From the sequence record PZ179880.1: a stretch of 64,000 nt of DNA; one strand, 5' to 3'. Of this stretch, positions 46,030 through 47,048 are shown piece by piece. Both the position numbers and the translations under genes were made by a program. Within the stretch, counting starts at the first letter, position 1. Each line of letters starts with the position of its first letter. The notes beneath the pieces were generated by a model, which saw only the letters and a list, made by a program, of their open reading frames with translations, made no database searches and was not told where the DNA came from. Origin of the DNA: a phage.

Positions 46030-46105
46030 TGGTCGAGGCAGTAGGGATCGAACCTACGACCTAGGACTTAGAAGGTCCTTGCTCTTCCTTCTGAGCTATG
46101 CCCCG
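46030..46105 (-). tRNA. tRNA-Arg (anticodon TCT), CCA encoded
   Basis: Hand-folded cloverleaf: acceptor CGGGGCA/TGCCTCG, anticodon loop CTTCTAA, T-loop TTCGATC. Confidence 0.85.
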
Positions 46106-46109
46106 TAAT

Positions 46110-46184
46110 TGGGTGACCGATGGGAGTCGAACCCATGACTACGAGAATCACAATCTCGAGTTCTACCAACTGAACTACGGCCAC
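46110..46184 (-). tRNA. tRNA-His (anticodon GTG) candidate
   Basis: Acceptor GTGGCCG/CGGTCAC, D-stem GTTC/GAAC, anticodon loop TTGTGAT; no G at -1, so His identity is tentative. Confidence 0.65.
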
Positions 46185-46298
46185 ATTAATACCTACTCCA
46201 ACAATCAAGATGTCTTCACACGAAATTAAGAGAAGAGTGATCAGTTCAACCCCTATAATCGCGTCAAGTAGGTATTAATGTGACAGTTGTCACAAATT
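46185..46298 (-). ncRNA. Structured spacer inside the tRNA cluster (candidate small RNA or processing element)
   Basis: Flanking inverted repeat TAATACCTACT / AGTAGGTATTA and palindrome TGTGACAGTTGTCACA; no ORF. Confidence 0.3.
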
Positions 46299-46374
46299 TG
46301 GCGGACGTGATAGGATTCGAACCTATAACCAATCGCTTAACAGGCGATCGCTCTGCCATTGAGCTACACATCCA
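46299..46374 (-). tRNA. tRNA-Asn (anticodon GTT), CCA encoded
   Basis: Acceptor GGATGTG/CACGTCC, anticodon loop CTGTTAA, T-loop TTCGAAT. Confidence 0.8.
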
Positions 46375-46378
46375 AATT

Positions 46379-46465
46379 GGTGGGGAGTGGTGGAGTCGAA
46401 CCACCCGAGTCGCAATGACAATGGATTTACAGTCCACACCGCTACCTCTACGGGATAACTCCCCC
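46379..46465 (-). tRNA. tRNA-Tyr (anticodon GTA), type II with long variable arm
   Basis: 87 nt; acceptor GGGGAGT/ACTCCCC, anticodon loop CTGTAAA, CCA encoded. Confidence 0.8.
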
Positions 46466-46475
46466 AAATTAATTT

Positions 46476-46550
46476 GGTGGCCCTGGGTGGAATTGAACCA
46501 CCATCTGGCGATTATGAGTCGCTTGCTTGAACCTTCCAGCTACAGGGCCT
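46476..46550 (-). tRNA. tRNA with CAT anticodon (Ile2-type by T4 position, or Met)
   Basis: Acceptor GGCCCTG/CAGGGCC, anticodon loop CTCATAA; 1 nt from tRNA-Thr (dimeric precursor). Confidence 0.8.
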
Positions 46551-46551
46551 T

Positions 46552-46627
46552 GGTGCTGATTGACGGAATCGAACCGCCGACCTTCTCATTACAAGTGAGT
46601 TGCTCTACCTACTGAGCTAAATCAGCA
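46552..46627 (-). tRNA. tRNA-Thr (anticodon TGT)
   Basis: Acceptor GCTGATT/AATCAGC, anticodon loop CTTGTAA, T-loop TTCGATT. Confidence 0.85.
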
Positions 46628-46632
46628 AAACT

Positions 46633-46722
46633 GGCGGAGGCGATAGGATTTGAACCTATGAGTCGCCGGAGCGACTGCCGGTTTTCAAGACCGGTGCATT
46701 AAACCACTCCGCCACGCCTCCA
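46633..46722 (-). tRNA. tRNA-Ser (anticodon TGA), type II
   Basis: 90 nt; acceptor GGAGGCG/CGCCTCC, anticodon loop CTTGAAA, long variable arm. Confidence 0.85.
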
Positions 46723-46724
46723 GT

Positions 46725-46798
46725 CTCCGTGGCAGGATTTGAACCTACGACATTCTGCTCCCAAAGCAGACGCTCTACCAAACTGAGCTACACGGAGT
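46725..46798 (-). tRNA. tRNA-Pro (anticodon TGG), CCA not encoded
   Basis: Acceptor CTCCGTG/CACGGAG, anticodon loop TTTGGGA; 2 nt from tRNA-Ser (dimeric precursor). Confidence 0.85.
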
Positions 46799-46808
46799 AA
46801 ATTAAATT

Positions 46809-46882
46809 GGAGCGGATAATGAGAATCGAACTCACATCATCAGATTGGAAGTCTGAGGTAATACCATTATACGATATCCGCA
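46809..46882 (-). tRNA. tRNA-Gly (anticodon TCC)
   Basis: Acceptor GCGGATA/TATCCGC, anticodon loop CTTCCAA. Confidence 0.85.
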
Positions 46883-46887
46883 AATTT

Positions 46888-46974
46888 GGTGCGAGAAGTG
46901 GGACTCGAACCCACAAGGAAATCATTCCGCAGCATTTTAAGTGCTGTGCCTTTACCAATTTGGCCATTCTCGCG
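46888..46974 (-). tRNA. tRNA-Leu (anticodon TAA), type II
   Basis: 87 nt; acceptor GCGAGAA/TTCTCGC, anticodon loop CTTAAAA. Confidence 0.85.
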
Positions 46975-46975
46975 C

Positions 46976-47048
46976 TGGGAATAAAGGACTCGAACCTTTG
47001 CATCCTGGAATCAAAATCCAGTGCCTTACCAACTTGGCTAATTCCCAA
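46976..47048 (-). tRNA. tRNA-Gln (anticodon TTG), CCA not encoded
   Basis: Acceptor TGGGAAT/ATTCCCA, anticodon loop TTTTGAT; 1 nt from tRNA-Leu (dimeric precursor). Confidence 0.85.

What the first reader, a model, noticed from the sequence alone, without database searches (positions are those of the whole stretch)
46030..47048. tRNA cluster of eleven genes; T4 order preserved with three additional tRNAs
Hand-folding gives eleven minus-strand tRNAs in transcription order Gln, Leu, Gly, Pro, Ser, Thr, Ile(CAT), Tyr, Asn, then a 114 nt gap, His, Arg. The Gln-Leu, Pro-Ser and Thr-Ile pairs are 1-2 nt apart (dimeric precursors), and Gln and Pro lack an encoded CCA, as in T4. T4 has eight tRNAs; Tyr(GTA), Asn(GTT) and the His(GTG) candidate are extra. 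Extra tRNAs could compensate codon-usage differences or counter host tRNA-cleaving defences (anticodon nucleases).
Basis: seen in the sequence. Interest (0 to 1): 0.45.

Follow-up and report, generated by a model that had tools for sequence, protein, structure and literature searches.

The report
T2-type phage tRNA gene cluster
This is a real but already well-known cluster of eleven transfer-RNA genes in a T4-like phage, of the T2 type rather than T4 plus three extras; its only unusual part is a conserved folded spacer joined to a histidine tRNA gene that lacks the usual extra 5' G.

Summary
The window is a Tequatrovirus, and the same array is annotated in many GenBank genomes (fPS-65, RB18 and others).

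The interpretation needs correcting. The cluster is not T4's set plus three insertions. Gln to Thr are T4 orthologues (89-100% identity). The CAT and Arg tRNAs are only 65% and 69% identical to T4's Ile and Arg, but 100% and 97% identical to T2's. The distal part is the segB-less T2/RB-type module described in 2008.

The CAT tRNA is an Ile2 (lysidine) type. Tyr is 86/87 identical to the T6 tRNA-Tyr shown in 2026 to counter the Septu defence by dosage. Codon usage supports extra supply for Tyr (1.8x) and Asn (1.6x), but not His (0.76x).

One part is not described, as far as I found. The 114-nt "gap" is a conserved structured RNA element: a 14-bp helix with compensatory changes that ends flush against tRNA-His. 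It travels with His across several Tevenvirinae genera. That His gene encodes no G-1 in any T4-like phage I examined.

The parts
46975..47047 (-). tRNA-Gln (anticodon TTG); no encoded CCA; 1 nt (C) separates its discriminator from tRNA-Leu
   Evidence: ARAGORN; Rfam 67.4 bits; 89% identical to T4 tRNA-Gln; 3' end
46887..46973 (-). tRNA-Leu (TAA), class II, CCA encoded
   Evidence: 64 bits; 98.9% identical to T4 Leu
46808..46881 (-). tRNA-Gly (TCC), CCA encoded
   Evidence: 65.8 bits; 100% identical to T4 Gly
46724..46797 (-). tRNA-Pro (TGG); no encoded CCA; 2 nt (CT) before tRNA-Ser
   Evidence: 69.7 bits; 89% identical to T4 Pro
46632..46721 (-). tRNA-Ser (TGA), class II; CCA encoded here, unlike in T4
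   Evidence: 57.9 bits; 98.9% identical to T4 Ser
46551..46626 (-). tRNA-Thr (TGT), CCA encoded; 1 nt before the CAT tRNA
   Evidence: 72.9 bits; 96% identical to T4 Thr. In T2 this gene is interrupted by a 133-aa ORF
46475..46549 (-). tRNA with anticodon CAT, of the Ile2 (lysidine, AUA-reading) type; a different lineage from T4's tRNA-Ile
   Evidence: 59.9 bits. 77% identical to E. coli ileX with an identical 15-nt anticodon arm and C4-G69/C5-G68; 70% to metT; 65% to T4 Ile; 75/75 to T2
46378..46464 (-). tRNA-Tyr (GTA), class II, with an atypical 4-nt acceptor/D connector
   Evidence: Rfam 30.3 bits against gathering score 29; 86/87 identical to T6 tRNA-Tyr, which is expressed and counters Septu (PMC13096335)
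46299..46373 (-). tRNA-Asn (GTT); identical to T2's tRNA-Asn gene, which holds the preferred SegB cleavage site
   Evidence: 74.1 bits; 75/75 to T2; PMC2330249
46185..46298 (-). Conserved structured spacer element: a small hairpin (46279-46294), then a 14-bp closing helix (5' arm 46266-46279, 3' arm 46185-46198) enclosing a variable interior and a conserved 3' strand CATC(T/A)TGATTGNTGGAGT. The helix ends at His position -1
   Evidence: MFE -35.3 kcal/mol, z -4.64. Helix 99.2% paired in 9 variants from 5-6 genera, with 4 compensatory positions. No Rfam match. Not related to rnaC/rnaD. Single copy in the window
46111..46184 (-). tRNA-His (GTG): G1-C72, C73, but T at -1 (no encoded G-1). The 3' end here is C73-C-A-A, one C short of C73-CCA
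   Evidence: 65.1 bits, model positions 1-71 = 46184-46112. Cloverleaf kept by compensatory changes in 9 of 22 pairs. -1 and 3' end:
46030..46105 (-). tRNA-Arg (TCT), T2-type isoacceptor gene, not T4's
   Evidence: 66.1 bits; 69% identical to T4 Arg, 76% to E. coli argU, 74/76 to T2
45661..46011 (-). 116-aa ORF of unknown function between tRNA-Arg and rnaD (absent from T4, present in T2)
   Evidence: PHROG 3355 'unknown function', E 8e-53; no Pfam family; 95% nucleotide identity to T2
45549..45661 (-). Homologue of T4 small stable RNA rnaD (species 2)
   Evidence: 79% identical to T4 rnaD; 99% to T2
45404..45542 (-). Homologue of T4 small stable RNA rnaC (species 1), with a tRNA-like T-arm at its 3' end
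   Evidence: 99.3% identical to T4 rnaC; fold
45330..45353 (-). Terminator-like GC-rich hairpin followed by a T run, downstream of rnaC; probable end of the transcription unit
   Evidence: a consensus match only

Best explanation
This is the tRNA and stable-RNA operon of a T-even (Tequatrovirus) phage, in its segB-less T2/RB-type form. It is transcribed on the minus strand as a polycistronic precursor: Gln-Leu-Gly-Pro-Ser-Thr-Ile2(CAT)-Tyr-Asn, structured element, His-Arg, ORF116, rnaD, rnaC.

Host enzymes are inferred to cut it into mature tRNAs. RNase P makes the 5' ends, endonuclease and exonuclease trimming makes the 3' ends, and the CCA-adding enzyme completes Gln and Pro.

The proximal six genes are T4 orthologues. 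The distal CAT-Tyr-Asn-Arg-ORF block is the T2-type cassette that stands where T4 has Ile-segB-Arg. An [element + His] cassette shared with other Tevenvirinae genera lies between Asn and Arg.

The tRNAs most likely top up the host pool for an AT-rich genome (35% GC). Eight read A-ending codons that are 1.6-4.2x commoner in the phage than in E. coli. Tyr and Asn serve amino acids the phage uses 1.6-1.8x more. tRNA-Tyr additionally buffers against tRNA-Tyr-cleaving defences (Septu / PtuAB type) by dosage.

Shown here or in papers: the genes, their homologies, the codon statistics, and the published T6 and T2L experiments. Inferred: co-transcription, the processing steps, lysidine modification of the CAT tRNA, and any benefit of Asn and His.
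For: - tRNA calls.
- Identical annotated arrays in fPS-65, RB18 and many others.
- T4 map and per-gene identities.
- T2 map and identities.
- No segB at the DNA or protein level.
- T2L region with Met/Tyr/Asn/Arg plus ORFs, and the SegB site in tRNA-Asn: PMC2330249.
- T6 tRNA-Tyr counters Septu: PMC13096335. The window's Tyr is 86/87 identical.
- Ile2 features.
- Codon usage.
- The leader upstream of Gln is 96% identical to T4's, and the CCA pattern is as described.
- rnaD, rnaC and a terminator-like hairpin lie downstream.
Against: - His codons are rarer in the phage than in E. coli (0.76x), so supply does not explain His.
- The His gene lacks the G-1 that E. coli HisRS uses as its main identity element (PMC9976931), so its charging is uncertain.
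- T2, T4, T6 and REP3 all do without His.
- Co-transcription and processing are inferred from T4 knowledge and were not measured.
- The codon comparison uses long ORFs of one 64-kb window and one 50-kb E. coli stretch, not expression-weighted gene sets.
Confidence: 0.85

Rival explanations
1. The three extra tRNAs (Tyr, Asn, His) are kept mainly as counter-defence. They are three of the four GUN-anticodon (queuosine-family) tRNAs, the target set of colicin E5-type anticodon nucleases. tRNA-Tyr is also the target of Septu and retron-Eco7 PtuAB nucleases. Phage copies would replenish or shield the pool.
For: - T6 tRNA-Tyr, 86/87 identical to the window's, rescues infection from Septu when over-expressed or amplified, and deleting T6's tRNA-rich region sensitises the phage (PMC13096335).
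- T5 tRNA-Tyr counters retron-Eco7, as cited.
- Colicin E5 is listed among E. coli tRNA-targeting enzymes, with four target tRNAs (PMC10264068).
- Related genera carry all four GUN tRNAs: Tyr, Asn, Asp and His.
- His cannot be explained by codon demand.
Against: - The anticodon loops of the window's Tyr, Asn and His are identical to E. coli's, so there is no sign of loop-based evasion.
- Septu cleaves the T6 tRNA-Tyr as well, and wild-type single-copy T6 is still restricted.
- I found no experiment linking phage Asn or His tRNAs to any defence.
- Tyr and Asn are also explained by codon demand.
Confidence: 0.3
2. The particular tRNA complement is largely an accident of cassette shuffling in a hyperplastic region driven by homing endonucleases. 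His rides along with its structured leader and is dispensable or decaying in Tequatroviruses.
For: - The cluster is a mosaic. Proximal genes are 85-100% identical to both T4 and T2, and distal genes are T2-type.
- T2 has an ORF inserted into Thr, T6 has segB after Tyr, and REP3 and STP4-a keep the element but have lost His.
- SegB drives replacement of this very region in T4 x T2L crosses (PMC2330249), and segB is generally associated with tRNA genes.
- The window's own His has a defective 3' end.
Against: - The His cloverleaf is maintained by compensatory substitutions across genera (9 of 22 pairs).
- The element's helix is likewise maintained. Both point to purifying selection rather than decay.
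- At least about 150 Escherichia phage records keep this His.
Confidence: 0.3
3. The 114-nt spacer is not an RNA element. It is a DNA-level signal, such as a promoter, a recombination site or an endonuclease target.
For: - It contains a TTGAC motif and a conserved 18-nt block including the near-palindrome ATCATGAT.
- It sits at a cassette boundary.
Against: - No promoter-like site was called on the transcribed strand inside it.
- The candidate -10 position is not conserved between genera.
- Compensatory changes keep a 14-bp helix. Where the interior is replaced, the replacement again folds as a hairpin.
- It lies inside a tRNA transcription unit.
Confidence: 0.1

Closest known systems
Phage T4 tRNA gene cluster (tRNA.1-8, segB, rnaC, rnaD; NC_000866 70.9-72.5 kb)
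   Same: - Same genomic neighbourhood and strand logic.
- The leader upstream of Gln is 96% identical.
- Gln-Leu-Gly-Pro-Ser-Thr are in the same order with the same 1-2-nt dimer junctions and 89-100% identity.
- rnaD and rnaC lie downstream.
   Different: - T4 has Ile-segB-Arg where the window has Ile2'-Tyr-Asn-element-His-Arg'-ORF116.
- The CAT and Arg genes are different lineages (65% and 69% identity).
- There is no segB.
- T4 lacks CCA on Ser and Ile as well.
T2 / T2L, RB1, RB3 segB-less tRNA regions (AP018813; EMBL AJ880101, AJ884577, AJ884578; Brok-Volchanskaya et al. 2008, PMC2330249)
   Same: - The CAT-Tyr-Asn-Arg module and the following 116-aa ORF, rnaD and rnaC are 95-100% identical to T2.
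- There is no segB.
- tRNA-Asn, which carries the preferred SegB site, is identical.
   Different: - T2 has only 4 nt between Asn and Arg, so it has no structured element and no His.
- T2's Thr gene is interrupted by a 133-aa ORF.
- The 2008 paper does not mention tRNA-His.
Annotated 11-tRNA arrays of window-type Tequatroviruses (e.g. Yersinia phage fPS-65 LR215724, RB18 NC_054906, vB_EcoM_ACG-C40, wV7)
   Same: Same eleven genes in the same order at 98-99.7% identity, already annotated as tRNAs in GenBank.
   Different: - The window has five private differences from fPS-65, including the missing C at the His 3' end.
- None of the records inspected annotates the spacer element.
Phage T6 tRNA-rich region and tRNA-Tyr (Chihara et al. 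2026, PMC13096335)
   Same: tRNA-Tyr is 86/87 identical. The experimental evidence for expression and for countering Septu by dosage applies to it.
   Different: - T6's array is Gln-Leu-Gly-Thr-Met-Tyr-segB.
- The window has no segB, so SegB-driven amplification of Tyr is not available to it in cis.
T4 small stable RNAs rnaC and rnaD (species 1 and 2; function unknown, PMC3014915)
   Same: Like them, the spacer element is a structured non-tRNA segment of about 100 nt, embedded in the tRNA transcription unit and bounded by tRNA processing sites. It would plausibly be released as a stable by-product.
   Different: - No sequence similarity.
- No tRNA-like T-arm.
- Different architecture: a long AU-rich closing helix flush with the next tRNA.
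E. coli tRNA-Ile2 (ileX, CAU anticodon modified to lysidine)
   Same: 77% identity, an identical anticodon arm GCGACUCAUAAUCGC, C4-G69 and C5-G68, and A73.
   Different: - It is phage-encoded.
- The 27-43 position is A-C instead of G-U.
- Lysidine modification was not tested.

Membership tests
T-even phage tRNA / stable-RNA operon | Tandem same-strand tRNA genes with T4-orthologous Gln-Leu-Gly-Pro-Ser-Thr and 1-2-nt Gln-Leu, Pro-Ser and Thr-CAT junctions | tested here: met
T-even phage tRNA / stable-RNA operon | rnaD and rnaC homologues downstream of tRNA-Arg | tested here: met
   rnaD 79% and rnaC 99% identical to T4. They are separated from Arg by a 116-aa ORF, as in T2
T-even phage tRNA / stable-RNA operon | Transcribed as polycistronic precursors processed by host RNase P and the CCA-adding enzyme | not testable with these tools
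   Inferred from T4 knowledge. The conserved leader and a terminator-like hairpin are consistent with it
T4-type cluster (Ile-segB-Arg) | segB homing endonuclease gene between Ile and Arg | tested here: not met
   No blastn hit and no tblastn hit in the whole window
T4-type cluster (Ile-segB-Arg) | T4-lineage tRNA-Ile and tRNA-Arg genes | tested here: not met
   65% and 69% identity only
T2/RB-type segB-less tRNA region (PMC2330249) | Met(CAT)-Tyr-Asn-Arg genes of the T2 lineage, plus the trna ORF, and no segB | tested here: met
   75/75, 85/87, 75/75 and 74/76 identity; ORF 335/351
T2/RB-type segB-less tRNA region (PMC2330249) | Preferred 27-bp SegB cleavage site within tRNA-Asn | tested here: inconclusive
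   The Asn gene is identical to that of T2 AP018813. The site sequence itself is given only in a figure, and T2L was not compared directly. Cleavage was not tested
tRNA-Ile2 (lysidine-dependent AUA reader) | CAU anticodon with TilS determinants C4-G69 and C5-G68 and an ileX-like anticodon arm; not an initiator (G1-C72, no three G-C pairs at 29-31/39-41) | tested here: met
   The determinants are taken from established knowledge of E. coli TilS
tRNA-Ile2 (lysidine-dependent AUA reader) | C34 actually converted to lysidine, and the tRNA charged with isoleucine | not testable with these tools
   Needs mass spectrometry or charging assays
Canonical bacterial tRNA-His | GUG anticodon and C73 discriminator | tested here: met
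Canonical bacterial tRNA-His | Genome-encoded G-1 opposite C73 | tested here: not met
   T at -1 in the window and in five or six other Straboviridae lineages. G at -1 in E. coli hisR and in two unrelated phages. Identity rule from PMC9976931
Nuclease-evading phage tRNAs with anticodon-loop mutations (PMC10264068) | Anticodon loop differs from the host isoacceptor at nuclease-relevant positions | tested here: not met
   The loops of the CAT, Tyr, Asn, His and Arg tRNAs are identical to E. coli ileX, tyrT, asnT, hisR and argU
Anti-Septu / anti-PtuAB phage tRNA-Tyr (PMC13096335) | Sequence identity with the tested T6 tRNA-Tyr | tested here: met
   86/87
Anti-Septu / anti-PtuAB phage tRNA-Tyr (PMC13096335) | Adjacent segB that allows amplification of the Tyr gene | tested here: not met
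rnaC / rnaD stable RNAs (as the family for the spacer element) | Sequence or architectural homology to rnaC or rnaD | tested here: not met
Any Rfam family (for the spacer element) | Covariance-model match at E-value of 1 or below | tested here: not met

The most novel reading that the evidence does not exclude
The 114-nt 'gap' and tRNA-His form one conserved cassette in T4-like phages. It consists of a structured RNA whose 14-bp helix ends exactly at His -1, joined to a tRNA-His that keeps C73 but never encodes G-1, the main identity element for E. coli HisRS.

If this matters, one of three things follows:
- These phages use a G-1-independent route to histidylation, or a non-canonical 5' maturation governed by the flush helix.
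- This tRNA-His has a non-translational role, for example as a decoy.
- The released leader is a third small stable RNA alongside rnaC and rnaD.

I found no description of any of this in the library searched.
Probability: 0.3. Interest if true: 0.55.

Novelty: already known. Interest (0 to 1): 0.2.

Why it matters
As a tRNA cluster it adds nothing new. The same array is annotated in many deposited Tequatrovirus genomes. Its T2-type architecture was published in 2008, and a function for its tRNA-Tyr was published in 2026.

Its practical value is as a correction. "T4 plus three" is the wrong model for this region. The distal half is an alternative cassette that T4's SegB endonuclease is known to overwrite in mixed infections.

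The part worth a specialist's attention is small. A covarying, unannotated RNA element is fused to a tRNA-His gene that lacks G-1 throughout the T4-like phages examined. If that tRNA is charged in E. coli, it bears on how strict the G-1 rule is in vivo. If it is not charged, it asks what the tRNA is for.

Tried and rejected
- **Spacer versus rnaC/rnaD.** I tested whether the 114-nt gap is a copy of T4 rnaC or rnaD. It is not. Both lie further downstream at 45404-45661.
- **Spacer versus Rfam.** No family, including the small ribozymes, matched at E-value of 1 or below. A by-eye comparison with the hammerhead core also failed.
- **Spacer as a promoter.** No site was called on the transcribed strand, and no -10 element is conserved between genera.
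- **More copies in IMG/VR.** A scan with the conserved 18-mer gave 24 loci, of which only 5 were real copies. The rest were chance matches inside coding sequence, so diversity stayed at nine variants.
- **Second stem of the element.** It is less well supported than the closing helix: 85% of cells paired and no compensatory change. The interior is not alignable in Cronus, Melville or STP4-a.
- **Alternative His registers.** I considered reading the first G as G-1. This would break U8/A9 and the D-stem, and Infernal places this G at model position 1, so I rejected it.
- **His 3' defect.** It turned out to be private to this sequence and is a homopolymer-length change, so I give it no biological weight.
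- **Flanking ORFs.** The 116-aa ORF and its neighbours gave only "unknown function" PHROGs and no Pfam family above cutoff.
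Full report

Yes. ARAGORN run on the whole 64-kb window returns exactly eleven tRNA genes. All are on the minus strand between 46030 and 47047. In transcription order their anticodons are Gln TTG, Leu TAA, Gly TCC, Pro TGG, Ser TGA, Thr TGT, CAT, Tyr GTA, Asn GTT, His GTG and Arg TCT.

Rfam's tRNA model (RF00005) scores all eleven above its gathering threshold. Ten score 58-74 bits. Tyr scores 30.3 bits against a threshold of 29.

The weak Tyr score has a visible cause. The gene has a perfect 7-bp acceptor stem and a regular 4-bp D-stem, but four nucleotides join them instead of two. 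Infernal therefore shifts register and loses acceptor pairs.

The Asn-His gap is 114 nt (46185-46298). Gln and Pro lack an encoded CCA.

**2. What genome is this, and is the array known?**

The block is 99.7% identical to Yersinia phage fPS-65, Escherichia phages G29, HP3 and YUEEL01, and many other Tequatroviruses. In total, 289 phage records cover at least 80% of the 1.2-kb query. fPS-65 annotates the same eleven tRNAs in the same order, and so do RB18, ACG-C40 and others. The array itself is therefore already in the public record.

**3. Is it "T4 order preserved with three additional tRNAs"?**

Only superficially. T4 reads Gln-Leu-Gly-Pro-Ser-Thr-Ile, segB, Arg, rnaD, rnaC. Identities of T4's genes to the window's are:

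| tRNA | Identity to T4 |
|---|---|
| Gly | 100% |
| Leu | 98.9% |
| Ser | 98.9% |
| Thr | 96% |
| Pro | 89% |
| Gln | 89% |

T4's Ile and Arg find only 20-32-nt patches. Global alignments give 65% (CAT tRNA against T4 Ile) and 69% (Arg against T4 Arg), which is no better than generic tRNA similarity.

T2 (AP018813) has Gln-Leu-Gly-Pro-Ser, an ORF inserted into Thr, then CAT-Tyr-Asn-Arg, a 116-aa ORF, rnaD and rnaC. Against the window, its distal genes score as follows:

| Feature | Identity to T2 |
|---|---|
| CAT tRNA | 75/75 |
| Asn | 75/75 |
| Tyr | 85/87 |
| Arg | 74/76 |
| 116-aa ORF | 335/351 |
| rnaD | 99% |

This is the segB-less region that Brok-Volchanskaya et al. sequenced in T2L, RB1 and RB3. 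They showed that T4's SegB overwrites it in mixed infection, starting from a preferred cleavage site in tRNA-Asn (PMC2330249). The window has no segB at either the DNA or the protein level. The distal half is thus an alternative cassette, not T4's genes with insertions.

**4. The CAT tRNA.**

ARAGORN labels it Met by default. Several features mark it as an Ile2-type tRNA instead:
- It is 77% identical to E. coli ileX, against 70% to metT.
- Its 15-nt anticodon arm is identical to ileX.
- It has C4-G69 and C5-G68, the acceptor-stem pairs that E. coli TilS uses to pick tRNA-Ile2 (established knowledge).
- It has G1-C72, so it is not an initiator.

Lysidine modification itself cannot be tested here.

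**5. Why the extra tRNAs?**

I computed codon usage from long ORFs of the window (81 ORFs, 17,205 codons) and of a 50-kb E. coli K-12 stretch (47 ORFs), using the same method for both.
- The eight tRNAs that read A-ending codons serve codons 1.6-4.2x more frequent in the phage (AGA 4.2x, ATA 3.7x).
- Tyr and Asn codons are 1.78x and 1.63x more frequent (TAT 2.7x, AAT 2.9x).
- His codons are less frequent (0.76x).

Supply therefore explains Tyr and Asn but not His.

On counter-defence, the window's tRNA-Tyr is 86/87 identical to T6's. Chihara et al. showed that Septu cleaves tRNA-Tyr in the variable loop. Extra T6 tRNA-Tyr rescues infection, and deleting the tRNA-rich region sensitises T6. However, Septu also cleaves the phage tRNA, so the effect is one of dosage (PMC13096335).

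The anticodon loops of the window's CAT, Tyr, Asn, His and Arg tRNAs are identical to those of ileX, tyrT, asnT, hisR and argU. The loop-mutation evasion model of van den Berg et al. (PMC10264068) therefore does not apply. Tyr, Asn and His are three of the four GUN-anticodon tRNAs targeted by colicin E5. That remains a lead, not a result.

**6. The 114-nt gap is a conserved structured element.**

It folds at -35.3 kcal/mol, with z = -4.64 against dinucleotide-preserving shuffles. It matches no Rfam family, is unrelated to rnaC and rnaD, and is single-copy in the window.

Homologous copies occur in three settings:
- About 190 Tequatrovirus records at 95% identity or more.
- At roughly 78-87% identity in Karamvirus, Gelderlandvirus and Klebsiella phages, and over only its 3' end in Roskildevirus. 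In most of these it lies just upstream of tRNA-His, which there follows tRNA-Gln.
- Two phages, REP3 and STP4-a, keep the element but have lost His.

T2, T4 and T6 have neither the element nor His.

I aligned nine distinct variants and counted pairs:
- The 14-bp closing helix is paired in 99.2% of cells.
- Four positions show changes on both sides (for example U-A to C-G, and C-G to U-A).
- Sliding the partner strand by 1-3 columns drops pairing to 26-51%.

The interior is variable. In Melville, STP4-a and Cronus it is replaced by unrelated sequence that again forms hairpins. A 3' strand, CATC(A/T)TGATTGNTGGAGT, is nearly invariant.

The helix ends at His position -1. RNase P cleavage at His +1 would therefore release an RNA whose 3' end is buried in a helix, and that RNA would plausibly be stable (inference).

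Related clusters hold other structured spacers. These include an rnaC homologue between Trp and Gly. The Asn-Asp spacer holds an rnaD-like segment and a second long-stem element that ends just before tRNA-Asp.

**7. The His gene lacks G-1.**

Infernal places the G at 46184 at model position 1 and C at 46112 as the discriminator. The base before it is T. The same holds in the Karamvirus phages (fGh-Ecl01, KKP_3262), Melville, Roth34, Cronus and Aeromonas phage phiAS5.

E. coli hisR encodes G at -1 opposite C73, and so do two unrelated phages, Arthrobacter phage Mimi and a faecal contig.

In E. coli, G-1:C73 is the major histidine identity element and is normally encoded in the gene. The known exceptions have co-evolved or tolerant synthetases (PMC9976931).

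The phage His cloverleaf is maintained by compensatory changes in 9 of 22 pairs, so it is under selection. I found no paper that describes this.

How this tRNA is matured and charged, or whether it does something else, is unexplained. This is the most novel reading the evidence leaves open.

**8. Private differences.**

Over 2.1 kb the window differs from fPS-65 at five positions:
- An extra G before Tyr.
- A missing C in the His CCCC run, giving C73-C-A-A instead of C73-CCA.
- A C at 46272 that turns a U-G pair of the element's helix into C-G.
- A G/A change in Ser (46710) and another in rnaD (45643).

The two homopolymer changes may be sequencing errors, so I draw no biological conclusion from them.

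**9. Verdict.**

The finding is a correct observation of a known feature, so I rate it "already known" with low interest. The cluster should be filed as T2/RB-type rather than as T4 plus three tRNAs. The element-plus-His cassette is the only part that might repay experiments.

Noticed in passing
window 46185-46298 (-): The Asn-His 'gap' is a conserved structured RNA element: a 14-bp helix with compensatory changes, a variable interior and a conserved 3' strand. It is unannotated in the records inspected, is absent from Rfam, and travels with tRNA-His across Tevenvirinae genera.
   Followed up: yes
window 46184-46185 (-); L003, L004, L005, L007, L042, L044: The tRNA-His genes of all T4-like phages examined have T at -1 (no encoded G-1) while keeping C73. 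Two unrelated phages (L043, L045) and E. coli hisR encode G-1.
   Followed up: partly
window 46113 and 46465: Two private homopolymer-length differences from fPS-65: a missing C in the His 3' CCCC run, and an extra G just 5' of Tyr. These may be sequencing errors in the source genome.
   Followed up: yes
window 45661-46011 (-): A 116-aa ORF of unknown function (PHROG 3355, no Pfam) sits inside the tRNA/stable-RNA unit between tRNA-Arg and rnaD, and its stop codon overlaps the start of rnaD. It is present in T2 and absent from T4.
   Followed up: partly
window 45549-45661 (-): The rnaD homologue is only 79% identical to T4's, while the adjacent rnaC is 99% identical. The central hairpin of rnaD is replaced but the outer stems are kept in the predicted folds.
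   Followed up: partly
L040 (T2 AP018813) 5711-6112 (-): T2's tRNA-Thr gene is interrupted after about 13 nt by a 133-aa ORF. The GenBank record labels it 'tail sheath monomer', which is surely a mis-annotation. The window keeps Thr intact and has no homologue of this ORF.
   Followed up: partly
L003 755-997 and 1853-2002; L004 1846-2000; L005 856-1108: Karamvirus, Gelderlandvirus and Klebsiella phage tRNA clusters carry an rnaC homologue between Trp and Gly. The Asn-Asp spacer (L003, L005) holds an rnaD-like segment plus a second long-stem element, with a helix of about 19 bp ending just before tRNA-Asp and compensatory differences between L003 and L005.
   Followed up: partly
L044 (Aeromonas phage phiAS5) 1-33: A short inverted repeat (ATAAATG...CATTTAT) ends flush against tRNA-His +1 in this distant Straboviridae phage as well. 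It is not homologous in sequence to the window's element.
   Followed up: no
window 46378-46464 (-): tRNA-Tyr has a 4-nt connector (U-A-U-C) between the acceptor and D stems instead of the canonical two. This may relate to the instability reported for the near-identical T6 tRNA-Tyr.
   Followed up: partly
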